IMG/VR virus record: IMGVR_UViG_643348544_000005 | Source of the DNA: a virus | Lineage: Duplodnaviria; Heunggongvirae; Uroviricota; Caudoviricetes | DNA length: 49,714 nucleotides | Strand: one strand, 5' to 3' | Part shown: positions 7,025 through 25,029 of the stretch, one piece after another | Numbering within the stretch: the stretch's first letter is position 1 | How the letters are laid out: the number at the start of each line of letters is the position of its first letter | Made by a program: the position numbers and the translations under genes | Notes under the pieces: generated by a model | Seen by the model: the letters and a program-made list of their open reading frames with translations, nothing else | Databases searched by the model: none | What the model was told of the DNA's origin: nothing

Positions 7025-7970
7025 ACGCCCACTGGTTATAAACACACAGCTTGCGATGAAGATTGGCTTAAATGAAGCCATTGTGTTGCAGCAGTTGCAT
7101 TACTGGTTGAGAGATACCAATTCCGGCATGGAATGTGATGGTGTTCGCTGGATTTACAACACAACGGAACAATGGCTGGAACAGTTCCCATTCTGGTCAG
7201 AGTCAACGTTAAAGCGCGCGTTTGCAAGTCTGAAAACGCTGGGGCTCTTGCGTTGTGAAAAGCTCAATAAATCAAAGCGCGATATGACCAATTTCTACAC
7301 GATTAACTATGGGAGCGAGCTTTTAGATGATGGCAAATTGAGCGAATCCATCGGTTCAAAATGCGCCGCTCCATCAGGTCAAAATGACACGATGGAAGAG
7401 GTCAAAATGAAACGCTCCATTGGTTCAAAACGACCCAATGTCATCGGGTCAAAATGGCCCGATGATCCTACAGAGAATACAACAGAGATTACTACAGAGA
7501 ATAAAAACACTTTTCGTCCGGAAGCTTCGCAACCGGACCCGCAGACGGCTGAACAGGATTTTTTAATCCGGCACCCTGGCGCAGTTGTGTTTAGTGCGAA
7601 AAAACGCCAGTGGGGTAGCCAGGAGGATCTGGCGTGTGCGCAGTGGATATGGGGGCGGATCGTGGGTCTCTACGAACAGGCCGCCAGTGATGATGGCGAG
7701 ATCATGCGACCAAAAGAGCCTAACTGGACTGTCTGGGCCAATGATGTGCGCACAATGCGGATGCTGGATGGCAGAAGCCACAGACAAATTTGTGAAATGT
7801 TTGGTCGGGTACAGCGGGATCCGTTCTGGGTAAAAAACATCATGAGCCCGTCAAAGCTCCGCGAAAAATGGGACGAACTGGTCATCCGCCTGGGGCGTTC
7901 ACCTGTACAGCGTTGTGTTAATCATATTTCTGAACCGGATACAGAAATTCCGCCTGGTTTCAGAGGATAA
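7005..7970 (+). CDS. Replication initiation protein (lambda O-like), contains origin iterons
   Basis: 321-aa frame from ATG 7005 (MSLLFAERPLVINTQLAMKIGLNEAIVLQQLHYW…); five iterons inside the gene encode repeated IGSK/GSK motifs; followed by AT-rich stretch, as in lambdoid ori-within-O. Confidence 0.65.
   Translation: MSLLFAERPLVINTQLAMKIGLNEAIVLQQLHYWLRDTNSGMECDGVRWIYNTTEQWLEQFPFWSESTLKRAFASLKTLGLLRCEKLNKSKRDMTNFYTINYGSELLDDGKLSESIGSKCAAPSGQNDTMEEVKMKRSIGSKRPNVIGSKWPDDPTENTTEITTENKNTFRPEASQPDPQTAEQDFLIRHPGAVVFSAKKRQWGSQEDLACAQWIWGRIVGLYEQAASDDGEIMRPKEPNWTVWANDVRTMRMLDGRSHRQICEMFGRVQRDPFWVKNIMSPSKLREKWDELVIRLGRSPVQRCVNHISEPDTEIPPGFRG
7348..7520 (+). repeat. Replication origin: five GGT(T)CAAAATG iterons plus AT-rich region
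   Basis: Directly seen: catcGGTTCAAAATG (7348), catcaGGTCAAAATG (7372), gaagaGGTCAAAATG (7395), cattGGTTCAAAACG (7418), catcgGGTCAAAATG (7442) at ~23-24 bp spacing, then acagagaatacaacagagattactacagagaataaaaacactttt. Confidence 0.7.
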
Positions 7971-14035: not shown

Positions 14036-14395
14036 ATGCTCATAGATTTGGTTTTACCTTACCCACCGACGGTGAACACTTACTGGCGACGCCGTGGCAG
14101 CACATATTTTATCTCGGAGGAGGGAAAGCGTTATCGCCGGACTGTGGCGCTTATTGTTCGCCAGCAGCGGCTGAAATTAAGCCTGTCCGGAAGGCTGGTA
14201 ATCAGGATTATTGCAGAGCCACCGGATAAGCGCCGTCGCGACCTGGACAATATCCTGAAAGCACCACTGGATGCGCTGACGCATGCAGGACTGTTAATGG
14301 ACGATGAGCAGTTTGATGAAATCAATATTGTACGTGGCCAGCCAGTATCAGGTGGACGGCTGGAGATAAAAATTACAGATGTGGGGTGTGCATGA
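14036..14395 (+). CDS. rusA: Holliday junction resolvase RusA
   Basis: 119-aa ORF MLIDLVLPYPPTVNTYW…RRDLDNILKAPLDAL… matches RusA family; AGAGG SD. Confidence 0.9.
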   Translation: MLIDLVLPYPPTVNTYWRRRGSTYFISEEGKRYRRTVALIVRQQRLKLSLSGRLVIRIIAEPPDKRRRDLDNILKAPLDALTHAGLLMDDEQFDEINIVRGQPVSGGRLEIKITDVGCA

Positions 14396-15081
14396 ATAAC
14401 CAGTATTTACAGTTTGTTCGTGAGCAACTCATGATTGCCACAGCGGATCTCAGTGGGTCGACAAAAGGCCAGCTGGAAGCCTGGCAGGAAAATGCCCTGT
14501 TCGATACGGGGCGTTACAGGCGTAAAAAAATCCGGTACCGCGATGAAGTGACCGGAAAAATGATCACGCGGGATAATCCACCAATCCCGGGAAAACAATC
14601 GCTGGCGAAGGGGACGTCAATTCCTCTGGTCAGTCAGGTTGCTTTTTCTACATCATCATGGCGGCGGGCTGTTTTGTCTCTTGAAGAACATCATAAAGCC
14701 TGGTTGTTGTGGTGTTACAGCGGAAATACTTGCTGGGAGTATCAGATCGCGATAACGCAGTGGGCATGGACAGAATTTAAGACTCACTCTGGTACCAGGA
14801 AAATTGCAGGGAAGACACAGGAACGCCTGAAAAAATTAATCTGGCTGGCTGCACAGGATGTCAGGAGATGGGTTATAGGACATGATATCTACCAGCAACA
14901 GGAGCTTGCCCGTCTGTGTGGGATTAAGCCTGACAACTGGAGCCACAATTATGTGAGCTACTGGCGTGAAATACTCGACATTTTTATGAACCTCGATACC
15001 GAATCTCTGATTTGCACTGTGAAAAGGAGAGCTCAACAAAAAGCGGCATTTTTGCAGCGAGATATTGCAAAAGTCAATTAG
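14392..15081 (+). CDS. Late-gene antiterminator Q-like protein
   Basis: 229-aa frame from ATG 14392 overlapping rusA stop; sits between rusA and a PR'/tR'-like promoter-terminator, the standard Q position; family assignment by position and size. Confidence 0.6.
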   Translation: MNNQYLQFVREQLMIATADLSGSTKGQLEAWQENALFDTGRYRRKKIRYRDEVTGKMITRDNPPIPGKQSLAKGTSIPLVSQVAFSTSSWRRAVLSLEEHHKAWLLWCYSGNTCWEYQIAITQWAWTEFKTHSGTRKIAGKTQERLKKLIWLAAQDVRRWVIGHDIYQQQELARLCGIKPDNWSHNYVSYWREILDIFMNLDTESLICTVKRRAQQKAAFLQRDIAKVN

Positions 15082-15130: not shown

Positions 15131-15154
15131 CCCGCTCAAATGTGCGGGTTTTTT
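15131..15154 (+). terminator. tR'-like intrinsic terminator downstream of Q
   Basis: CCCGC-TCAAATGT-GCGGG hairpin followed by TTTTTT; candidate -35/-10 (TTGCAA…TATATT) lies ~40-60 bp upstream, consistent with a late promoter and short leader. Confidence 0.5.
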
Positions 15155-15227
15155 GCTTAACTCTGTGGACCTTTTTATCTGTAGTTGTAATATATGGATA
15201 TTGTTACAATTTAGGTCGGTGAGCTTA

Positions 15228-15992
15228 ATGGAAGAACAGCACGGTAATTACTTTATAAAACGAATTCAGTTGATTGGAAGAGGGGCATTTGGCTTTGTTG
15301 AACACGTTAAGGTTTACAACCTCAATAAAGGTGAATGCGGGGATTATGCTAGAAAGGTCTTAGCACCCGAAAAACCAGAGCTTTTGGCGCAAATAGAGCA
15401 GTTTAGAAGGCGTTTTAAAAGGGAGGTTGTGTATCAATCACATTGCGTACATAGCAATATTGTTCCTATTTATTTGTGCGATTTGTTTGTTGAGAATCCA
15501 TGGTTCATTATGGATAAAGCAGAATGTGATCTTGAGCACGAAATAACGAACAACCTTCTTACAACAGATCAAAAAATTTCAATAGTGAAAATGGTATTAG
15601 ATGGTGTAGCTTACATCCATGCCAAAGGCTATTTACACAGAGATATAAAACCCTTTAATGTTTTGCGATTTAGCGACGGAACATACAAGGTGTCTGATTT
15701 TGGTCTGGTAAAAGATACGAATCCCGAAGGGGATACCACTAAATTGACCGAGATCGGTACCCGTATGGGAAGTACAAGATATATGGCTCCCGAGATTTTA
15801 TATAATGCAGAGTATTCAGTTAAGACTGATGTTTATGCTGTGGGACGGTTAATTGAAGACTTAAATTTAGATGATAAAAAAATAAAGCCTATCATAGCTA
15901 AGTGCACAAGGATGGATAAAGATGATAGATATCAGACAATAGATGATGTGGCGTTTGATTTTGCGCATTCTTTTTTAAGGAGTGAGTCATGA
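15228..15992 (+). CDS. Hanks-type (eukaryotic-like) Ser/Thr protein kinase
   Basis: 254-aa frame from ATG 15228; kinase subdomain motifs read directly: GRGAFGFV (Gly loop), YARKV (Lys), HRDIKPFNV (catalytic loop), DFG, APE; AT-rich. Confidence 0.85.
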   Translation: MEEQHGNYFIKRIQLIGRGAFGFVEHVKVYNLNKGECGDYARKVLAPEKPELLAQIEQFRRRFKREVVYQSHCVHSNIVPIYLCDLFVENPWFIMDKAECDLEHEITNNLLTTDQKISIVKMVLDGVAYIHAKGYLHRDIKPFNVLRFSDGTYKVSDFGLVKDTNPEGDTTKLTEIGTRMGSTRYMAPEILYNAEYSVKTDVYAVGRLIEDLNLDDKKIKPIIAKCTRMDKDDRYQTIDDVAFDFAHSFLRSES

Positions 15993-16732
15993 TTCAGCTG
16001 ATAGCAACTTCATCATTCTCGTATCCAAAAGAACCAGGTAGGGTCAACGAAGATTCATTGCTTCCTCCAAAAATTGTAGGAGACGGCATCTTATTTGCCG
16101 TAGCTGATGGTGTAGGTTCATACTCTGGTGCCAGTTATGCTTCATCCATGGCAATCGCTGAACTTTCAGCATTGACAAGTTTATCTTTTGATGCAGTTCC
16201 GAATGTATTTGCTGAAGTTAAGCGAAAAGTTATGTCGTTAGCTGAAGTTAATGATGAGTTCGATAAAGCTGCTACTACACTTACCTTTTGTTATGTTTGT
16301 GATAGCGGAATTATTATTGGTCATATTGGTGATTGTCGCTTGTATTGCATTGGAGAAAAGAAAGCATACCAATTGACGAAGGACGATACCAGACATCAGA
16401 TGTTAATTGATCAGAATATTTTTAAACCCAGAGATTTGAAGAATAAACCGGGAAAAAATATCTTAACGACTGCCATAGCCTCAAATGTTGATATGGAATA
16501 CGACTGTGATTTTATCCCGTGGAAAGATTTGCCTGGTATTAACGGGTTGTATCATCTGTGTATCATGTCTGATGGAGTTCATAACGTTTGGGAAAAACGC
16601 CCCAGATTTACATCAAATACTATGAGTAATAGTCAGAAGTTTTCTAATGGTATTTTGCGTCGTATAGAGAGAGCCGGACCTGATGATGACTTTTCTTTAG
16701 TAAGTATAATGGTGCGTGTGACGTCAGATTAG
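15989..16732 (+). CDS. PP2C-family Ser/Thr protein phosphatase
   Basis: 247-aa ORF, ATG 15989 overlapping kinase stop (ATGA) with AAGGAG SD; PP2C-like motifs …RVNEDS…, …FAVADGVGSYSG…, …MSDGV…. Confidence 0.85.
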   Translation: MIQLIATSSFSYPKEPGRVNEDSLLPPKIVGDGILFAVADGVGSYSGASYASSMAIAELSALTSLSFDAVPNVFAEVKRKVMSLAEVNDEFDKAATTLTFCYVCDSGIIIGHIGDCRLYCIGEKKAYQLTKDDTRHQMLIDQNIFKPRDLKNKPGKNILTTAIASNVDMEYDCDFIPWKDLPGINGLYHLCIMSDGVHNVWEKRPRFTSNTMSNSQKFSNGILRRIERAGPDDDFSLVSIMVRVTSD

Positions 16733-17218: not shown

Positions 17219-17294
17219 GGCCCTTTAGCTCAGTGGTGAGAGCGAGCGACTCATAATCGCCAGGTCGCTGGTTCAAATCCAGCAAGGGCCACCA
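17219..17294 (+). tRNA. tRNA with CAU anticodon (Ile2/ileZ-like or Met)
   Basis: Cloverleaf read directly: acceptor GGCCCTT/AAGGGCC (7 bp), D-arm GCTC…GAGC, anticodon loop CTCATAA, T-arm GCTGG-TTCAAAT-CCAGC, encoded CCA. Confidence 0.85.
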
Positions 17295-17301
17295 TCACAT
17301 A

Positions 17302-17378
17302 CCGCCATTAGCTCATCAGGAAAGAGCGCCAGCCTTCGAAGCTGGTTGCGCGGAGTTCGGGTCCCCGAAGGCGGTCCA
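17302..17378 (+). tRNA. tRNA-Arg-like (anticodon UCG), imperfect stems
   Basis: D-arm GCTC…GAGC and anticodon arm CCAGC-CTTCGAA-GCTGG are clean; acceptor (CCGCCAT/AAGGCGG) and T-stem (CGGAG/CCCCG) each carry one mismatch and T-loop is TTCGGGT; may be degenerate. Confidence 0.55.
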
Positions 17379-17391
17379 TTATCTGTATCCT

Positions 17392-17468
17392 GCGTTGTTA
17401 GCTCAGCCGGACAGAGCAATTGCCTTCTAAGCAATCGGTCACTGGTTCGAATCCAGTACAACGCGCCA
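17392..17468 (+). tRNA. tRNA-Arg (anticodon UCU)
   Basis: Acceptor GCGTTGT/ACAACGC perfect, D-arm GCTC-AGCCGGACA-GAGC, anticodon arm ATTGC-CTTCTAA-GCAAT, T-arm ACTGG-TTCGAAT-CCAGT, encoded CCA. Confidence 0.85.
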
Positions 17469-18444: not shown

Positions 18445-20301
18445 ATGGCATTTAAACACTATGACGTGGTCAGGGCGGTATCGCCGTCAGACCTTGCGAA
18501 ACGACTGACACAAAAACTGAAGGAGGGCTGGCAGCCGTTTGGTAGTCCGGTGGCCATAACCCCTTATACCCTGATGCAGGCGATTGCAGCAGAAGGTGAT
18601 GTGGTGGTCAGTGGTGCAACTGAGCCGGATTGGTACTACGTCATCGTACTGGCCGGGCAGTCCAATGCCATGGCTTACGGTGAAGGGCTTCCGCTTCCGG
18701 ATTCATACGATGCGCCCCATCCGCGCATTAAGCAACTGGCCCGTCGTAACACAGTGACTCCCGGTGGTGAAGTATGCGTATTTAACGACATCATTCCTGC
18801 TGACCATTGTCTGCATGATGTTCAGGATATGAGTACGATTAACCATCCCCGGGCTGACCTGAGCAAAGGGCAGTACGGCTGTGTCGGCCAGGGCTTACAT
18901 ATTGCCAAAAAACTGCTTCCGTATATCCCTAATAATGCGGGGATCCTGCTGGTACCATGCTGTCGTGGTGGTTCGGCATTCACCCAGGGCACGGAGGGGA
19001 CATTCAGCGAGTCCACGGGGGCCAGTCAGGATTCGGCTCGCTGGGGAGTGGGTAAGCCGTTATATCAGGATCTGCTTTTCCGCACGAAGGCAGCATTGCA
19101 GAAAAACCCGAAAAACGTTTTGCTGGCGATATGCTGGATGCAGGGGGAATTCGATATGACGAATGCCAGTTACGCCCAGCAGCCAGCAGCATTTCTTGCA
19201 ATGGTACAGCAGTTCCGTGCTGACCTTGCCGGGCTGGCGGCGCAGTGTCACGGTGGAAGTCCGGCATCAGTCCCCTGGATTTGTGGCGACACGACATACG
19301 CGTGGAAACAAGAACACGGTACGCAATATGAAGTGGTATATGGTGCATATAAAGGTAAAGAATCCCAGCAGATTTATTTTGTTCCCTTTATGACCGATGG
19401 TAGCGGAGTTAATACACCGACAAACAACCCGTCAGAAGATCCTGATATTGCCGGGTCTGGTTATTACGGTTCGGCATCCCGAACGAACAAAAACTGGGTA
19501 TCATCAAATCGCCCGACGCATTTCAGCTCATGGGCGCGTCGTGGCATTATTCCCGATCGTATGGCAACTGCTATTCTGAACGTAGCCGGTCGCACCTTAG
19601 CCTTCATTAGTGGTAAGGCACCGGAAATCAAACCCTCGCCCGGCGGCGACACGCCATCGGGGCCGTCTGATGGTGACACATCCGTTCGTACAGTCTCCCT
19701 GCTGCCGACAGCCGGAGAGGCTGCTGCGCAGGGCTGGACCATCACCGGCGGCAGTGTTGCGCTGGAAGATGGTGTGTTTAAGGTTACCAAGCAGAGCAAT
19801 AAAACTTGGTCCCTGATGCATCCGGTGGATGACGCAGTCTCCCTGCTGACACGGGGTGGCAGACTGAGCTGTAAGTTTCGACTGTCAGGCGCACTGACCA
19901 ACAATCAGTTCGGTCTGGGAATTTATCTGTATACCGATGTAGCGTTACCTGACGTCGTGGCGATGACCGGGACTGGTAACCCGTTCCTGATGTCGTTCTT
20001 CACCCAGACCACAGACGGCAAACTGAATCTGATGCATCACAGGAAAGCAGGAAACACAAAGTTGGGCGAGTTCGGGAATTACAGTAACGACTGGCAGACG
20101 CTGGAGCTGGTGTTCACCGCCGGCAGTGCCACGGTTACTCCGAAACTGAATGGAGTGGCTGGCCCGGCATTCCAGGTCATAAAAGACAGTCTGACACTGG
20201 GGCTGAATGCGCTGACGCTGACGGATATTACCAAAAATGCAGCGTATGGCGTTGAGATAGAAAGTCTGGTGCTGGAGATAAATGCACCAGCATCATCATA
20301 A
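18445..20301 (+). CDS. nanS: NanS-p/YjhS-like sialate O-acetylesterase (SGNH hydrolase)
   Basis: 618-aa ORF, ATG 18445 with GGGAGGA SD; N-terminal …VIVLAGQSNAMAYGEG… (GQSN motif); occupies the position downstream of the tRNAs where the esterase gene lies in Stx phages. Confidence 0.8.
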   Translation: MAFKHYDVVRAVSPSDLAKRLTQKLKEGWQPFGSPVAITPYTLMQAIAAEGDVVVSGATEPDWYYVIVLAGQSNAMAYGEGLPLPDSYDAPHPRIKQLARRNTVTPGGEVCVFNDIIPADHCLHDVQDMSTINHPRADLSKGQYGCVGQGLHIAKKLLPYIPNNAGILLVPCCRGGSAFTQGTEGTFSESTGASQDSARWGVGKPLYQDLLFRTKAALQKNPKNVLLAICWMQGEFDMTNASYAQQPAAFLAMVQQFRADLAGLAAQCHGGSPASVPWICGDTTYAWKQEHGTQYEVVYGAYKGKESQQIYFVPFMTDGSGVNTPTNNPSEDPDIAGSGYYGSASRTNKNWVSSNRPTHFSSWARRGIIPDRMATAILNVAGRTLAFISGKAPEIKPSPGGDTPSGPSDGDTSVRTVSLLPTAGEAAAQGWTITGGSVALEDGVFKVTKQSNKTWSLMHPVDDAVSLLTRGGRLSCKFRLSGALTNNQFGLGIYLYTDVALPDVVAMTGTGNPFLMSFFTQTTDGKLNLMHHRKAGNTKLGEFGNYSNDWQTLELVFTAGSATVTPKLNGVAGPAFQVIKDSLTLGLNALTLTDITKNAAYGVEIESLVLEINAPASS

Positions 20302-21575: not shown

Positions 21576-22030
21576 GCAGAGTCGCAGCGATTATTTATAC
21601 TCTGGTTATCTGCACCATCGTCTGCCTGTCATGGGCTGTTAATCATTACCGCGATAACGCCATTACCTACAAAGCCCAGCGCGACAAAAATGCCAGAGAA
21701 CTGAAGCTGGCGAACGTGGCAATTACTGACATGCAGATGCGTCAGCGTGATGTAGCAGAACTCGACGCCAGATACACAAAGGAGCTTGCTGATGCTAACG
21801 CGACTATCGAAAGTCTTCGTGCTGATGTTTCTGCTGGGCGTAAGCGCCTGCAAGTCGCCGCCACCTGTGCAAAGTCAACGACCGGAGCCAGCAGCATGGG
21901 CGATGGAGAAAGCCCAAGACTTACAGCAGATGCTGAACTCAATTATTACCGTCTCCGAAGTGGAATCGACAAGTTAACCGCTCAGGTCAACTACCTGCAG
22001 GAGTACATCAGGACGCAGTGCTTAAAATAA
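21572..22030 (+). CDS. Rz: i-spanin Rz
   Basis: 152-aa frame from GTG 21572 overlapping endolysin stop (GTGA); N-terminal TM then coiled-coil-like sequence; contains embedded Rz1. Confidence 0.8.
21792..21977 (+). CDS. Rz1: o-spanin Rz1 (lipoprotein) embedded in Rz in +1 frame
   Basis: 61-aa frame [27 protein letters not shown]… with lipobox (VSAC) and Pro-rich body; AGGAG SD 8 nt upstream of ATG 21792. Confidence 0.7.
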
Positions 22031-22071
22031 TTTTAATTTCACTGAAATTTAATACGTGACTTTCAGGAAAA

Positions 22072-22096
22072 TGCCTCGCAGATGCGGGGCATTTTT
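22072..22096 (+). terminator. Intrinsic terminator after lysis cassette
   Basis: TGCCTCGC-AGAT-GCGGGGCA hairpin followed by TTTTT. Confidence 0.55.
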
Positions 22097-22446
22097 GTAC
22101 AGGTATTTCACCGCGCACCGCAGCGCACTCAACCACGTCGAACCAAACCCTTTGGAATGAGCCTTTGAGTAGTCAGTTAGTGCTGGTGAGCCTTGACGGG
22201 CTGATCTCCTATGCAGCAAAGGTTCATCTCAAAGTAAGACGAACGCTATGACAAACCAAGATTCTATAGACCTATCTGATCTTCGTGGAATGGTCATTTT
22301 TCCAGACAAAAGGTAATCACCATAGTCGTATGGCTATGAATCTTGTTGCTGCAGATAAGCATTTTGTGATTGAAGTGGTCAAATCTCTCAAATGCAGTAA
22401 AATGCAGTGCGCTATAATTCAATAACGGAGGGAGTAAGGAGAAGTC

Positions 22447-23067
22447 ATGAAAGATCAAGATGTTAGGTTCGCGGTGCATCATAAGCTTTTGAAAGAATCG
22501 CATTTAGATCCAGACTGCCTTGTGGTCGATGAATTTTCCATATCCCTTGGCGCCAGTAGAGCAGACATTGCTGTAATAAATGGTGTTATACACGGGTACG
22601 AGCTCAAAAGTGAATATGACTCTTTGGAGCGTTTGCCTCTTCAAATCAAGCATTATTCTTCTGTAATGGACAAGGTTACTCTTGTCGTAGCTGAGAAACA
22701 CCTTGAGGGAGCATTAAAGTTAATCCCAGGTTGGTGGGGCGTTAAAACGGTTTCTGTTGGGCCAAAAGGCGCCATTCTTATAAAGCACATGCGTGGAGAA
22801 AAGCTTAATCGAAACCATGACACATTGATGCTCGCTCAATTGCTTTGGAAAGATGAATGTATCGACGTACTTGAACGATGGGGCTATTCCAAAGGAATCA
22901 AAAGCAAGCCCCGATTTGAGTTATGGAATATTATTGCGGAAAATATTCCAATAGCGAATCTCAGGCCTGAAGTCAGAACAGCCTTAAAGAAACGCGTAGG
23001 CTGGAAAGTTAAGGCTTGGCAGGCTGAGTCTGCGCCAACCAATAAAGCTGTCTCACGACTAACGTAA
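22447..23067 (+). CDS. PD-(D/E)xK nuclease-like protein (candidate defence/accessory gene)
   Basis: 206-aa ORF, ATG 22447 with AAGGAG SD; …CLVVDEFSI…RADIAVIN…IHGYELKSE… fits a D…ExK restriction-endonuclease-like motif; AT-rich; resemblance to sce7726-type family is by memory only. Confidence 0.6.
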   Translation: MKDQDVRFAVHHKLLKESHLDPDCLVVDEFSISLGASRADIAVINGVIHGYELKSEYDSLERLPLQIKHYSSVMDKVTLVVAEKHLEGALKLIPGWWGVKTVSVGPKGAILIKHMRGEKLNRNHDTLMLAQLLWKDECIDVLERWGYSKGIKSKPRFELWNIIAENIPIANLRPEVRTALKKRVGWKVKAWQAESAPTNKAVSRLT

Positions 23068-24076
23068 TATGGTGCGTATGTGCAACTTTACGCCATTCTT
23101 TAGAGCCGCCAGATTTGTTAGCGCCTAATGATCTTTGGTAAATGTAATCATCCCCCCAACTAAATTTGGAGCCAAAGACTTGATACTCTGGCGAACTAAC
23201 AAGGGTAGTACATAAGTTTTTAGTTTGGCCCCATCCATTTCCTTTAACTGCGGTACCTTTTACAAAGATCCATGAGGTATCGTTCGAATATCTCACTGAG
23301 ACATACTGAGACATGAAGCGTGGGTCTACGCTCGTAATGGTAGAGCTAGCGGTGGGATAATCACTAAAACTTGGCGTTCTTCCATTGCTAAAATTCTGTA
23401 CTACGTACATCCAAAGATCGTATTCATGGCGCGGAATATGATGAACTTGATGTTGCGGTATCCCTGCCTGTGATGCCGGGTATGCGGTTGAAGATAAAAT
23501 CAAGTTTCTCCACGGAGCTTGGCCTGATAATGTGTTGACCATGCTTAATGCTTGTTGTTTTAAACTATCAGTTGCGTTTTGAATATCTCCAAAATCAATG
23601 ATTACATCAATTAAACTAGGATGAATATTTAAGTGGTTAACCAGACTTGTGAATTGGTGCCATGTCTGGGGGGTGATAGATATAGCGAGCCCATTGATTA
23701 AGTTGCGTTGAACAGCATGTATATAGTTTGTTGAATATGCGGGAGAAACAACAGGGATAATTTCCTTACCATTTACTCTAGCATCTTGGATACACATATC
23801 TAGAGGATGATGGCGGCTCGAACCATGTTTATCTAAATATTTAACATCCAGCAAAACAGGACGATTGGCTTTCCAGGATGCCGCAAGGTTAATACCGAAG
23901 TCAGATAAGTAAGAACTCAAATTCTTCTTGTAGCATTCGTTTTCATAATCCCAGTCTATGTCTGGAATGGTAATGATCGGAGTAAAACCAGAGAGCGTAG
24001 TTTGATCTAAAAGCATCAGAGATTCATATTCAGCAGGCTTCCATTTCAGCTGTGGATAATATTGATGTTGACTCAT
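23009..24076 (-). CDS. Hypothetical 355-aa protein (possibly beta-protein/sce7725-like), convergent partner of the nuclease-like gene
   Basis: ATG 24074-24076 with AAGGAG SD; 3' end overlaps the convergent gene by 59 bp (23009-23067); AT-rich; no motif recognised by eye. Confidence 0.6.
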   Translation of the reverse strand: MSQHQYYPQLKWKPAEYESLMLLDQTTLSGFTPIITIPDIDWDYENECYKKNLSSYLSDFGINLAASWKANRPVLLDVKYLDKHGSSRHHPLDMCIQDARVNGKEIIPVVSPAYSTNYIHAVQRNLINGLAISITPQTWHQFTSLVNHLNIHPSLIDVIIDFGDIQNATDSLKQQALSMVNTLSGQAPWRNLILSSTAYPASQAGIPQHQVHHIPRHEYDLWMYVVQNFSNGRTPSFSDYPTASSTITSVDPRFMSQYVSVRYSNDTSWIFVKGTAVKGNGWGQTKNLCTTLVSSPEYQVFGSKFSWGDDYIYQRSLGANKSGGSKEWRKVAHTHHITLVVRQLYWLAQTQPAKP

Positions 24077-24299
24077 TAAAACTCCTTAAAATCTTTACTT
24101 ATCCTAAGTATAGTGTTATGGCGTAACGCCAATTGTTTTTATACACTTGAAAACATTGGGAAAAGTTGAGCTATATCTAAATTTACAAAATTGGATGTTA
24201 TAGAAATCGAGGTTTCAACTAGGCATGGAACTGCAAAATTTTTAATGCCTGCACGCGAAAGTCGTTGGCGGGTCCTTTCCGGTGATCCAGATCGTTACG

Positions 24300-24311
24300 G
24301 GGCGGCGACCT
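24300..24311 (+). other. cosN cohesive-end sequence (GGGCGGCGACCT), within cos region ~24240-24480
   Basis: 12-mer GGGCGGCGACCT followed by CGCGGGTTTTCGCTATTTATGAAAATTTT matches recollected lambda left end; lies just upstream of Nu1. Confidence 0.75.
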
Positions 24312-24480
24312 CGCGGGTTTTCGCTATTTATGAAAATTTTTAGGGAAAAATCAGATCCGTTCTTCTTCTTTTTAACTGATTGATTATCAATAGAATTTTA
24401 AAAATATAAAAGGATCTGACAAAGGCTATTTTTGTTAGAAAACGCCATTTTCAGATCCTTTCTGGTTCCCGGGGGAGTGT

Positions 24481-25029
24481 ATGAACGTCAATAAGAAAAA
24501 ACTGGCCGATATTTTTGGCGTTGATGTCAGGACCATCACCGCCTGGCAGAGTCAGGGGTTACCACTAGTTTCTGGTGGAGGAAAAGGGACTGAATCAGTT
24601 TTTGATACAACTGCTGCCATTCAGTGGTATGCGCAGAGGGAAGCTGATATTGAAAACGAAAAACTCCGTAAAGAGATCGAGGATTTGAGGGCTGCCAGCG
24701 AATCAGACCTTCAGCCCGGCACCATTGATTACGAACGTTACCGACTGACGAAGGCACAGGCCGATGCACAGGAGCTGAAAAATGCTCGTGAGGAAGGCCT
24801 TGTCCTCGAGACGGAGTTATTTACCTACATCTTTCAGCGAGTGGCACAGAATATATCAGGGATCCTTGTCCGTGTCCCTCAGACACTGCAGCGTAAATAC
24901 CCTGATATATCACCCGTACATCTTGATGCTGTGAAAACTGAAATCGCGAAAGCATCCGATGTGGCTTCTGAAGCCGGTGAGAATGTGCGCAGGTGGATTG
25001 ATGATTTCAGACGAACTGAGGGCGGCTAA
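24481..25029 (+). CDS. nu1: Terminase small subunit Nu1
   Basis: [36 protein letters not shown]… closely matches recollected lambda Nu1. Confidence 0.9.

What the first reader, a model, noticed from the sequence alone, without database searches (positions are those of the whole stretch)
22100..24240. AT-rich convergent two-gene cassette (PD-(D/E)xK-like protein plus 355-aa partner) between the lysis genes and cos
Between the Rz terminator (22072-22096) and cosN (24300) sit two AT-rich genes foreign to the lambdoid core. Gene 22447..23067 carries a D…ExK arrangement (…VVDEF…YELKSE…) suggestive of a restriction-endonuclease-like fold. Gene 23009..24076 is a 355-aa protein with no motif recognisable by eye. 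Both have strong AAGGAG ribosome-binding sites. They converge and overlap by 59 bp at their 3' ends, an unusual arrangement that implies coupled or antisense-regulated expression. From memory the pair resembles the poorly characterised sce7726-like and beta-protein/sce7725-like families that co-occur; I cannot verify this here. No function is established for such a pair, so a nuclease-based anti-phage or addiction module is a plausible hypothesis.
Basis: partly seen in the sequence, partly recalled or inferred. Interest (0 to 1): 0.8.

Follow-up and report, generated by a model that had tools for sequence, protein, structure and literature searches.

The report
Gop-less P4 beta/cII prophage cassette
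Two foreign genes sitting between the lysis genes and cos of a lambda-like E. coli prophage are distant copies of the beta and cII genes of satellite phage P4, that is, the shared core of two experimentally validated anti-phage systems, here without any of the known toxin partners, so it is probably a prophage defence module whose mechanism is still unknown.

Summary
ORFs 22447..23067 (+, 206 aa) and 23009..24076 (-, 355 aa) are real and under strong purifying selection. They are AT-rich (GC 0.405 against 0.502 for the window), each has an AAGGAG site, and they converge with a 59-bp overlap.

The 206-aa protein is sce7726 family / Pfam Phage_P4_cII. It has a PD-(D/E)xK fold with invariant E29, D40, E52-x-K54. 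The 355-aa protein is Pfam Beta_protein, a TIM barrel with conserved polar residues on the catalytic face.

The P4 gop-beta-cII system protects against lambda and P1, and the third component of PD-lambda-2 is a beta protein.

The window has no gop and no HigB/Xre-peptidase. In more than 120 distinct loci, beta and cII-like genes are always tail-to-tail and nearly always overlap, and gop is never present. About 30% of the metagenomic loci carry a PD-lambda-2 B gene upstream of beta. Some pairs lie beside BREX, Gabija or R-M systems.

The window therefore holds the bare conserved core, carried as cargo in the variable Rz-cos slot. It is found in 127 of 5426 complete E. coli genomes.

The most likely function is anti-phage defence with the cII-like nuclease as effector. 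This is not proven. I rate it a new variant of a known kind, of moderate interest.

The parts
22067..22096 (.). Hairpin terminator after Rz, with an A-run before and a U-run after it (looks bidirectional). It marks the left edge of the slot.
   Evidence: Fold energy -20.4 kcal/mol, z = -5.4, and 0 of 200 shuffles fold as well.
22101..22252 (-). Remnant of the usual slot cargo, a fragment of an Rha/anti-repressor gene. Conserved lambdoid flank sequence ends near 22251.
   Evidence: 82.5% identity to the 'anti-repressor' gene of phage IdasGreatGrand. Other prophages carry a whole Rha gene at this position. The flank match ends at query position 695, which is window position 22251.
22252..24262 (.). 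AT-rich inserted cassette, GC 0.405, holding both genes and their own upstream regions.
   Evidence: Composition. Flank homology to other E. coli prophages stops near 22251 and resumes near 24262-24270. The cassette is 99-100% identical in 127 of 5426 complete E. coli genomes.
22376..22418 (+). Conserved promoter-like and operator-like block upstream of the cII-like gene. It contains TGGTCA, then 16 nt, then TAAAAT; a tandem AAATGCAGT(A/G) repeat at 22390-22408; and TATAAT at 22413-22418.
   Evidence: Promoter scan hit. The block is conserved in the E. coli, Pectobacterium, Pantoea, Klebsiella and Edwardsiella loci while the surrounding sequence diverges. Function is inferred only.
22447..23067 (+). 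cII-like gene (sce7726 family / Pfam Phage_P4_cII), 206 aa. It encodes a PD-(D/E)xK nuclease domain (E29, D40, E52, K54, Q66) and a C-terminal helical domain that resembles a DNA-binding domain. Residues 192-206 are a lineage-specific disordered tail.
23009..23067 (.). 59-bp overlap of the two convergent coding regions at their 3' ends. There is no room for an intergenic terminator.
   Evidence: Neither strand folds like a terminator. The overlap grew from 11 bp through a TAG-to-TGG change.
23009..24076 (-). beta-family gene (Pfam Beta_protein), 355 aa. It encodes a TIM-barrel protein with conserved polar residues on the catalytic face: K11, E16, D77, R133, D161, R216, D239, Y240, Y263, Q284, D309, H335, H336.
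24082..24087 (-). Ribosome-binding site of beta (AAGGAG on the minus strand), 5 nt before the start codon.
   Evidence: Read directly from the sequence. The AAGGA core is conserved in the relatives' alignment.
24135..24186 (-). Conserved non-coding block upstream of beta, on the minus strand: AAATTTAGATATAGCTCAAC...TTTTCAAGTGTATAAAAAC. It is a probable promoter or regulatory region that travels with the cassette.
   Evidence: The alignment of beta upstream regions from E. coli, Pectobacterium, Pantoea, Klebsiella and Edwardsiella shows this block conserved within diverged sequence. Function is inferred only.
24119..24131 (.). Palindrome TGGCGTTACGCCA followed by a T-run on the + strand. It is specific to this window and not conserved in relatives. 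It could be a terminator for + strand read-through or a binding site.
   Evidence: Terminator-like hit. Absent from the aligned relatives.
24300..24311 (+). Lambda-type cosN (GGGCGGCGACCT), the right edge of the slot.
   Evidence: Sequence. The cos region matches 61 lambdoid phage records. Identification of the 12-mer as lambda's cohesive end rests on established knowledge.

Best explanation
The cassette is a horizontally acquired 'moron' in the variable Rz-to-cos slot of a lambda-like prophage. It encodes the bare two-gene core that is shared by the P4 gop-beta-cII system and by PD-lambda-2-type anti-phage loci.

Most likely it is expressed in the lysogen from its own two conserved upstream regions and protects the lysogen against superinfecting phages.

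Proposed working, which is inferred:
- The cII-like protein is the effector. It is a PD-(D/E)xK DNA nuclease with a helical DNA-binding domain.
- The beta protein is a TIM-barrel enzyme or regulator that senses infection or licenses the nuclease. It does not act as an antitoxin, because natural beta-null alleles coexist with an intact cII-like gene.
- The two genes lie tail-to-tail and overlap at their 3' ends, so their mRNAs must be complementary there. This couples their expression through antisense pairing or transcriptional interference.

Shown here: gene reality, folds, catalytic residues, homology, conserved architecture, slot variability and defence-island neighbours. Inferred: defence activity itself, which protein is the effector, the trigger, and the role of the overlap.
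For: Homology to validated systems:
- PADLOC 'cll' 3.8e-31, PD-Lambda-2_C 6e-32 and 'beta' 6.8e-10.
- Pfam Beta_protein and NCBIfam sce7726.
- BLASTP to P4 cII 3e-19 and to P4 beta 3e-7.
- P4 has the same layout, cos-gop-beta -> <- cII.
- P4 gop-beta-cII protects against lambda and P1 (PMC9122126). It behaves as an Abi system triggered by a phage gene (preprint 10.1101/2023.04.06.535777).
- PD-lambda-2C is needed for defence against lambda-vir (PMC9519451).

The pair is a conserved unit:
- 50 of 50 distinct viral or genomic pairs are convergent, and none has gop.
- 76 of 76 metagenomic loci with room have a convergent beta, and 74 of them overlap by 11 to about 150 bp.
- 5 of 5 sampled distant beta representatives have a cII-like partner.

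Defence-type neighbourhoods:
- BREX; Gabija plus a type II R-M.
- Type I R-M, a SIR2-like PDC-S25 protein and a PD-T4-6-like kinase.
- A PD-lambda-2 B gene directly upstream of beta in 13 of 45 loci.

Protein and context evidence:
- The nuclease is catalytically complete.
- Beta has a conserved catalytic-face constellation.
- Purifying selection acts on both genes.
- The slot carries other cargo in related prophages, including Rha/DUF1398/YlcI and Iss-Bor/TonB-like genes. The same cassette occurs in a different lambdoid background.
- Beta-disrupted alleles with an intact cII-like gene are found in at least 5 of 127 genomes.
Against: - No experiment exists for a gop-less pair. In both validated relatives the demonstrably toxic component is an accessory protein that is absent here (Gop, or the Xre-peptidase PD-lambda-2B).
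- The PD-lambda-2 clone seems, from its published coordinates, too short to hold a whole cII-like gene. A beta protein may therefore work without cII in that setting.
- Identity to the P4 proteins is low, 21% and 27%.
- The beta fold gives no specific chemistry; only generic TIM-barrel neighbours were found.
- The P4 cII gene was named for a lysogeny phenotype, not for defence.
- Promoter-like matches in the region are no more frequent than in shuffled sequence.
- The recurrent disruption of beta may simply reflect IS preference for AT-rich DNA.
Confidence: 0.55

Rival explanations
1. Addiction (toxin-antitoxin-like) module. The pair mainly stabilises the prophage or the cassette itself by killing cells that lose it, and has no role against other phages.
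For: - P4 gop and beta were described as a toxin-antitoxin-like pair, and PD-lambda-2 was classed as TA-derived.
- The cassette is mobile cargo found in several element types.
- It contains a nuclease that could act as a toxin.
Against: - The genes are convergent, large (206 and 355 aa) and separately promoted. This is unlike type II TA operons.
- Natural alleles with beta broken by IS1, IS5 or a frameshift keep an intact cII-like gene. Beta is therefore not an essential antitoxin of the nuclease.
- No allele with a disrupted cII-like gene was seen, so the opposite polarity (beta as toxin) is not excluded.
- Several pairs lie inside defence islands.
Confidence: 0.12
2. Restriction-modification-like system. 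Beta is a TIM-barrel enzyme that marks self DNA or a nucleotide pool, and the cII-like nuclease cuts unmarked incoming DNA. The convergent layout would match that of many type II R-M pairs.
For: - A catalytically complete PD-(D/E)xK nuclease with restriction enzymes among its structural neighbours.
- A partner with an enzyme-like conserved active face.
- The convergent architecture is strictly conserved.
Against: - There is no methyltransferase or other known DNA-modification signature.
- Beta-null alleles with an intact nuclease gene are viable in at least 5 genomes. This is hard to reconcile with a protective modification.
- The P4 system behaves as abortive infection and programmed cell death.
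Confidence: 0.1
3. Phage life-cycle function. The pair serves the carrying element itself, for example in lysogeny control, DNA processing or recombination, or in counter-defence. It would not protect the host from other phages.
For: - P4 cII was named for a lysogeny-related phenotype (established knowledge of P4 genetics), and some database names call homologues 'regulatory protein'.
- Most sampled loci are in prophages or satellites.
- In the E. coli, Klebsiella and Yersinia prophages the cII-like gene points the same way as the late operon. It would therefore be read in sense, and beta in antisense, during lytic growth.
Against: - The region is non-essential in P4.
- The slot holds unrelated cargo in sister prophages.
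- The pair also occurs outside phages, next to BREX, Gabija, R-M and RHS loci.
- It is present in only 127 of 5426 E. coli genomes, although lambdoid flanks occur in 5129.
Confidence: 0.12

Closest known systems
P4 gop-beta-cII anti-phage system (DefenseFinder/PADLOC 'Gop_beta_cll'; Ghisotti 1990; Rousset 2022, PMC9122126)
   Same: - Both window proteins are homologues of P4 beta and P4 cII. RefSeq gives all four the same names.
- Both beta proteins are 355 aa.
- The beta -> <- cII layout is convergent in both.
- In both, the genes are non-essential cargo next to cos, with beta on the cos side.
- The cII family is Pfam Phage_P4_cII.
   Different: - There is no gop anywhere in the window. Gop is the only component shown to be toxic in P4.
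- Identity is only 21% for beta and 27% for cII.
- P4 cII is 264 aa, against 206 aa here.
- P4 has a 27-bp gap with a terminator between the genes, where this locus has a 59-bp overlap.
- The host element is a lambdoid prophage and not a P4 satellite.
PD-lambda-2 (Vassallo 2022, PMC9519451): HigB-like A, Xre-peptidase B, beta-like C
   Same: - The window beta scores better against the PADLOC PD-Lambda-2_C models (6e-32) than against the P4 'beta' model.
[quoted passage not shown]
- In metagenomes, PD-lambda-2 B genes sit directly upstream of beta genes that converge on a cII-like gene, in 13 of 45 loci.
   Different: - There is no A or B homologue in the window.
- PD-lambda-2 as published lists no cII-like component, and its clone seems too short for one.
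- HigB plus ImmA/IrrE pairs also exist on plasmids without beta or cII. That pair is therefore a separate module.
'beta' and 'CII phage-like protein' genes of Escherichia phage Rac-SA53 (KU052037)
   Same: It is a gop-less, convergent, overlapping (41 bp) beta/cII-like pair in a lambdoid E. coli phage. Its authors had already annotated the genes by their P4 names.
   Different: - It is a different sub-family, with about 30% identity to the window beta.
- It sits in a different slot, in the nin/Q region beside hok-mok and not between Rz and cos.
- No function has been tested.
MmcB-like and other PD-(D/E)xK nucleases (PDB 3dnx, Can2, NucS, SdaI)
   Different: - Sequence-profile searches find no solved relative.
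- There is no CARF or other sensor domain.
- The partner protein and the genomic architecture are different.
Convergently arranged type II restriction-modification gene pairs
   Same: A PD-(D/E)xK nuclease gene faces a second enzyme gene tail-to-tail, which allows mutual transcriptional interference. This comparison rests on established knowledge of R-M gene organisation.
   Different: The partner is a TIM barrel of unknown chemistry and not a methyltransferase. Natural loss of the partner is tolerated.

Membership tests
Pfam Beta_protein (PF14350) | Full-length match to the family HMM above the gathering score | tested here: met
   190.6 bits against a cutoff of 27. Residues 6-342 match profile positions 1-342 of 342.
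NCBIfam sce7726 family (NF033832) / Pfam Phage_P4_cII (PF26915) | Match above the curated cutoff | tested here: met
   184.1 bits against a cutoff of 70, covering positions 1-182 of 184. PF26915 is precomputed for the 99%-identical cluster representative P0035. PF26915 is not in the local Pfam copy (one search found no family).
NCBIfam sce7725 family | The 355-aa partner matches the sce7725 model | tested here: not met
   NCBIfam gave no sce7725 hit for the 355-aa protein at E <= 1. I could not test whether sce7725 proteins are themselves Beta_protein members.
PD-(D/E)xK nuclease superfamily | Core fold | tested here: met
PD-(D/E)xK nuclease superfamily | Conserved catalytic residues (E/D ... 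D ... (D/E)xK) | tested here: met
   E29, D40, E52, K54 and Q66 are invariant in 48 homologues at 39-85% identity.
PD-(D/E)xK nuclease superfamily | Metal-dependent nuclease activity | not testable with these tools
   Needs purified protein.
Gop-beta-cII defence system (P4 type) | beta homologue present | tested here: met
   PADLOC 'beta' 6.8e-10. BLASTP to P4 beta 3e-7 over the full length.
Gop-beta-cII defence system (P4 type) | cII homologue present, convergent with beta | tested here: met
   PADLOC 'cll' 3.8e-31. BLASTP to P4 cII 3e-19. Layouts.
Gop-beta-cII defence system (P4 type) | gop (toxic component) present upstream of beta | tested here: not met
   No PADLOC gop hit for the small ORFs of the cassette. 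No phmmer hit of P4 Gop in the six-frame translation of the whole window at E <= 1. Only 223 bp of non-coding DNA lie between beta and cos.
Gop-beta-cII defence system (P4 type) | Protects against phage | not testable with these tools
   Needs plaque assays.
PD-lambda-2 defence system | C component (beta-like) | tested here: met
   PADLOC PD-Lambda-2_C 6e-32 and 2.2e-25.
PD-lambda-2 defence system | A (HigB-like) and B (Xre-HTH + ImmA/IrrE peptidase) components | tested here: not met
   An HMM built from six PADLOC-confirmed B proteins finds nothing in the six-frame window at E <= 1. The small flanking ORFs have no PADLOC hit.
TIM (beta/alpha)8 barrel fold | Eight-fold beta/alpha barrel, with conserved polar residues at the C-terminal ends of the strands | tested here: met
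Type II toxin-antitoxin operon | Co-directional, co-transcribed small toxin and antitoxin genes, with the antitoxin indispensable | tested here: not met
   The genes are convergent, with separate conserved upstream regions. Beta-null alleles coexist with an intact cII-like gene.
Restriction-modification system | A DNA methyltransferase or other known modification enzyme paired with the nuclease | tested here: not met
   No methyltransferase family hit in Pfam, NCBIfam, PADLOC or PHROGs. The partner is a TIM barrel of unknown chemistry.

The most novel reading that the evidence does not exclude
The beta/cII-like pair may be an autonomous and very widespread two-gene immune module. The beta family alone comprises about 3,800 clusters at 50% identity.

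In this reading, a TIM-barrel enzyme of new chemistry controls a PD-(D/E)xK nuclease, and the obligatory antisense overlap of the two mRNAs acts as the expression switch. The same pair would be the common chassis onto which different toxin modules have been grafted: Gop in P4 and HigB/Xre-peptidase in PD-lambda-2.

That would unify two catalogued defence systems and change which component is regarded as their core.
Probability: 0.35. Interest if true: 0.7.

Novelty: new variant of a known kind. Interest (0 to 1): 0.5.

Why it matters
- Current defence-system catalogues list Gop-beta-cII and PD-lambda-2 as separate three-gene systems.
- A bare pair such as this one has no gop and no A or B component. 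From memory of the DefenseFinder and PADLOC rules, which I did not run here, it would not be called as a complete system.
- The survey shows that the gop-less, tail-to-tail beta/cII pair is the common form. It occurs in prophages, satellites and defence islands of many bacterial groups.
- The survey also shows that PD-lambda-2-type loci in metagenomes carry a cII-like gene that the published system description does not list.
- If the pair defends on its own, a widespread immune module is being under-counted.
- The toxin-antitoxin reading of P4 gop/beta would then need revising.
- A TIM-barrel enzyme would join the known immune effectors or sensors.
- For E. coli, it would be one more lysogen-protecting moron in the Rz-cos slot, alongside bor/iss.

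Tried and rejected
- Profile searches against solved structures found no relative for either protein.
- Rfam found no RNA family in 21800-24600.
- The overlap region does not fold like a terminator on either strand.
- Promoter and terminator consensus hits in the region are no more frequent than in shuffles. The promoter assignments therefore rest only on conservation.
- Fold searches for beta returned only generic TIM barrels. The DpdA/TGT resemblance was considered and set aside as non-specific. The afdb50 library was unavailable.
- The genome-contig scan returned only 7 loci because its patterns were narrow.
- The diverse beta alignment was too divergent for a metagenome scan, so the cII-like alignment was used instead.
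- I tried to find the E. coli PD-lambda-2 locus in order to look for a neighbouring cII-like gene:
  - blastn with a metagenomic B-beta-cII locus found nothing in E. coli genomes.
  - The plasmid hits were HigB/ImmA pairs without beta or cII.
- Literature searches for sce7726, sce7725, PF14350 and 'beta family protein' gave no functional study of the gop-less pair.
- I rejected the reading that the ORFs are chance or decaying genes.
- I rejected the reading that beta is an essential antitoxin of the nuclease.
Full report
**1. The observation**

One is 22447..23067 on the + strand (206 aa). The other is 23009..24076 on the - strand (355 aa). They converge and share 59 bp.

Each start codon is preceded by AAGGAG at a 5-nt spacing (sequence).

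GC falls to 0.35-0.44 across the cassette, against about 0.50 on either side. It is 0.405 for 22252-24262 and 0.502 for the whole window.

The hairpin after Rz is strong: -20.4 kcal/mol, z = -5.4. The lambda-type cohesive-end sequence GGGCGGCGACCT starts at 24300, in a region shared with 61 lambdoid phage records.

Both ORFs are real genes. Against orthologues from Klebsiella, Pectobacterium and Edwardsiella, non-synonymous differences are 0.08-0.14 per site. Synonymous differences are about 0.7 per site and close to saturation. This gives dN/dS of about 0.04-0.08.

**2. What the proteins are**

*The 206-aa protein.*
- It matches NCBIfam sce7726_fam at 184 bits against a cutoff of 70, the PADLOC model 'cll' at 3.8e-31 and phrog_984.
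- Its 99%-identical database representative carries Pfam PF26915, which is Phage_P4_cII.
- In 48 homologues at 39-85% identity, E29, D40, E52, K54 and Q66 are invariant.
- The AlphaFold model (pLDDT 89.9) has the alpha-beta-beta-beta-alpha-beta core of PD-(D/E)xK nucleases, followed by a helical domain. Residues 192-206 are disordered.
The aspartate is D40 of RADIAV, however, and not D28 of VVDEF.

*The 355-aa protein.*
- It matches Pfam Beta_protein end to end at 7e-56, PADLOC PD-Lambda-2_C at 6e-32 and 'beta' at 6.8e-10, and phrog_9159.
- The NCBIfam sce7725 model does not hit it.
- Its model (pLDDT 93.4) is an alternating strand-helix barrel.
- A full HMMER scan of 1.84 billion representatives finds 3,768 clusters at E <= 1e-3, almost all single-domain proteins of about 360 aa.
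- Across 80 diverse members including P4 beta, P33, P108, D161, P200, D239 and H336 are invariant. K11, E16, D77, R133, R216, Y240, Y263, Q284, D309 and H335 are at least 90% conserved.
- Several of these residues lie at or within predicted barrel strands, which is the usual catalytic face of TIM barrels. Beta is therefore probably an enzyme. Its reaction cannot be read from these data.

**3.

Satellite phage P4 carries cos, then gop (133 aa), then beta (355 aa), and then cII (264 aa) on the opposite strand with a terminator between. RefSeq names P4 beta 'beta family protein' and P4 cII 'sce7726 family protein'.

The window proteins align with them over their full lengths, at 21% identity (E = 3e-7) and 27% identity (E = 3e-19).

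What is known of these relatives:
- P4 gop-beta-cII protects E. coli against lambda and P1. Gop is toxic without beta (PMC9122126).
- A preprint reports that a phage accessory gene, orf184, triggers cell death through this system.
- PD-lambda-2 consists of a HigB-like protein, a toxic Xre-peptidase and a third protein 'related to a P4 phage antitoxin'. The third protein is needed for defence against lambda-vir but not for neutralising the toxin (PMC9519451).

The window has neither gop nor the PD-lambda-2 A or B genes. The small ORFs of the cassette have no PADLOC hit. Six-frame searches of all 49.7 kb with P4 Gop, and with an HMM of confirmed PD-lambda-2 B proteins, find nothing at E <= 1.

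**4. The pair is the conserved unit**

*Closest relatives.* In prophages of Klebsiella, Yersinia and Vibrio, beta and cII-like genes are adjacent, convergent and without gop.

*Viral and genomic loci.* I took 80 viral contigs found with the cII-like protein, 40 found with beta, and the genomic loci. Among them there are 50 distinct pairs.
- All 50 are tail-to-tail.
- Their 3' ends lie between a 14-bp gap and a 68-bp overlap.
- No locus has a gop homologue.

*Metagenomic loci.* 80 loci carry a cII-like gene at 39-56% identity.
- All 76 with enough sequence downstream have a convergent beta.
- 74 of the 76 overlap, by 11 to about 150 bp. The modes are 44 and 59 bp.
- Again no gop is present.

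*Sampling from the beta side.* Five of five sampled distant beta representatives have a convergent cII-like gene. One of these had been missed by the gene caller.

*This lineage.* The 59-bp overlap arose from an 11-bp one through a TAG-to-TGG change. Overlap is nevertheless a hallmark of the family. The overlap region does not fold as a terminator, so the two mRNAs must be complementary at their 3' ends.

**5. Variable add-ons and neighbours**

Of 45 metagenomic loci with at least 1 kb upstream of beta, 13 carry a gene directly upstream of beta on the same strand that matches PADLOC PD-Lambda-2_B, with E as low as 1e-149. Counting partial contigs, the number is 18 loci.

PD-lambda-2-type loci in nature thus often read (HigB)-B-beta -> <- cII-like. 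The published PD-lambda-2 clone leaves only about 400 bp beyond the genes. I infer that it probably lacks an intact cII-like gene, if ECOR42 has one at all.

HigB plus ImmA/IrrE pairs also occur on plasmids without beta or cII, so that pair is an independent module.

Other neighbours of beta/cII pairs:
- BREX
- Gabija plus a type II R-M
- a type I R-M, a SIR2-like PDC-S25 protein and a PD-T4-6-like kinase
- an RHS locus in Burkholderia
- a CI repressor in an Acinetobacter prophage
- a primase-bearing integrative element in Enterobacteriaceae

Phage Rac-SA53 has a gop-less pair that its authors already labelled 'beta' and 'CII phage-like protein'. The homology to P4 is therefore not new to annotators.

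**6. The slot**

The window is 100% identical to a prophage of E. coli 55989 across the 3.5-kb region searched.

The cassette occurs at 99-100% identity in 127 of 5426 complete E. coli genomes. Sequences like the flanking Rz or cos regions occur in 5129 genomes.

Flank homology ends near 22251, after a 150-bp remnant of an Rha/anti-repressor gene. It resumes near 24262-24270.

Sister prophages hold other cargo at this position: Rha + DUF1398 + YlcI/YnfO, Iss/Bor + a TonB-like gene, and KilA-N, PerC or DUF6979 genes. The same cassette also sits in a lambdoid prophage with different holin, lysozyme and terminase genes.

Conserved non-coding blocks lie upstream of each gene and travel with the cassette across genera.

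**7. How it most likely works**

*Shown:* a catalytically complete PD-(D/E)xK nuclease with a helical C-terminal domain that resembles a DNA-binding domain; a TIM barrel that looks like an enzyme; a strict pairing with overlapping convergent transcription units; homology to components of two validated anti-phage systems; recurrent placement in prophage cargo slots and defence islands.

*Inferred:*
- In the lysogen the pair guards against superinfecting phages.
- The nuclease is the effector.
- Beta senses or licenses.
- The antisense overlap couples the expression of the two genes.

*A constraint from natural variation.* At least 5 of the 127 E. coli copies have beta broken: twice by IS1, once by IS5, once by a larger insertion and once by a 1-bp indel. 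The cII-like gene is contiguous in all 127. A viral locus also has IS1 in beta. The nuclease is thus not lethal without beta, which argues against beta being its antitoxin or a protective modifier. The numbers are small, and IS elements favour AT-rich DNA.

I put the defence reading at 0.55. The rivals are a pure addiction module, an R-M-like system and a phage life-cycle function, each at about 0.1.

**8. Verdict**

The pair is not without known relatives, because it is the gop-less core of P4 gop-beta-cII and of PD-lambda-2-type loci.

I rate it a new variant of a known kind, with interest 0.5. The families are annotated and related systems have been validated. The bare pair has not been tested, its chemistry is unknown, and the universal tail-to-tail overlap is unexplained. 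The link between two catalogued systems through a shared beta/cII core is worth following up.

Noticed in passing
window 15153-16732 (+): A 279-aa Ser/Thr kinase lies directly after the Q antiterminator gene (14386-15081). It matches Pfam Pkinase at 2e-33, and PADLOC mad6 at 1.7e-40, PD-T4-6 at 1.8e-34 and Stk2 at 1.6e-27. An overlapping 247-aa PP2C phosphatase gene follows it. This is a second candidate defence cargo in the same prophage.
   Followed up: partly
L060 5001-6810: In one viral contig a cII-like gene is followed on the same strand by a kinase fragment and a PP2C-like gene, with no convergent beta. It is the only clear case of cII-like without beta, and it echoes the kinase/PP2C pair in the window.
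   Followed up: no
window 22101-22252 (-): A fragment of an Rha/anti-repressor gene, 82.5% identical to phage IdasGreatGrand. Sister prophages have the whole gene at this position. The beta/cII cassette therefore seems to have replaced older cargo.
   Followed up: partly
E. coli genomes CP042892, CM129638, CM128593, CP042350, CM136150; viral locus L082: The beta gene is repeatedly broken: by IS1 twice, by IS5, by a larger insertion and by a 1-bp indel, plus an IS1-mediated rearrangement in L082. The cII-like gene is contiguous in all 127 E. coli copies.
   Followed up: partly
window 23040-23067; L004-L007 about 7058-7070: A TAG-to-TGG change in the E. coli lineage removed the ancestral stop codon of the cII-like gene. 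It added 16 disordered residues and lengthened the overlap from 11 to 59 bp.
   Followed up: yes
metagenome loci L183, L193, L199, L210, L217, L218, L221, L224-L226, L228, L232, L233: PD-lambda-2 B-like Xre/ImmA-IrrE peptidase genes sit directly upstream of beta in loci that also have the convergent cII-like gene. The published three-gene PD-lambda-2 description does not list a cII-like component.
   Followed up: partly
window 22390-22408 (+): A tandem 10-bp repeat, AAATGCAGTA AAATGCAGTG, overlaps the promoter-like elements upstream of the cII-like gene. It is conserved in five genera and could be an operator.
   Followed up: no
window 24119-24131: The perfect palindrome TGGCGTTACGCCA lies between the beta start and cos, followed by a T-run on the + strand. 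It is not conserved in relatives.
   Followed up: no
window 17219-17468 and 18445-20301: Three tRNA genes (CAT anticodon, Arg-TCG and Arg-TCT) lie here. RefSeq annotates the CAT-anticodon gene as tRNA-Ile, while ARAGORN calls it tRNA-Met. They are followed by a 618-aa DUF1737 + sialate O-acetylesterase + DUF6645 protein, upstream of the holin gene. This is the slot that holds Stx genes in Stx phages; that last point is from memory.
   Followed up: no
window, L010, L016: In the E. coli, Klebsiella and Yersinia lambdoid prophages, the cII-like gene points the same way as the lysis-to-terminase late operon and beta points against it. Q-antiterminated late transcription would therefore read cII-like in sense and beta in antisense. 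In Yersinia the pair sits inside the lysis cassette, between the lysozyme and Rz-like genes.
   Followed up: no
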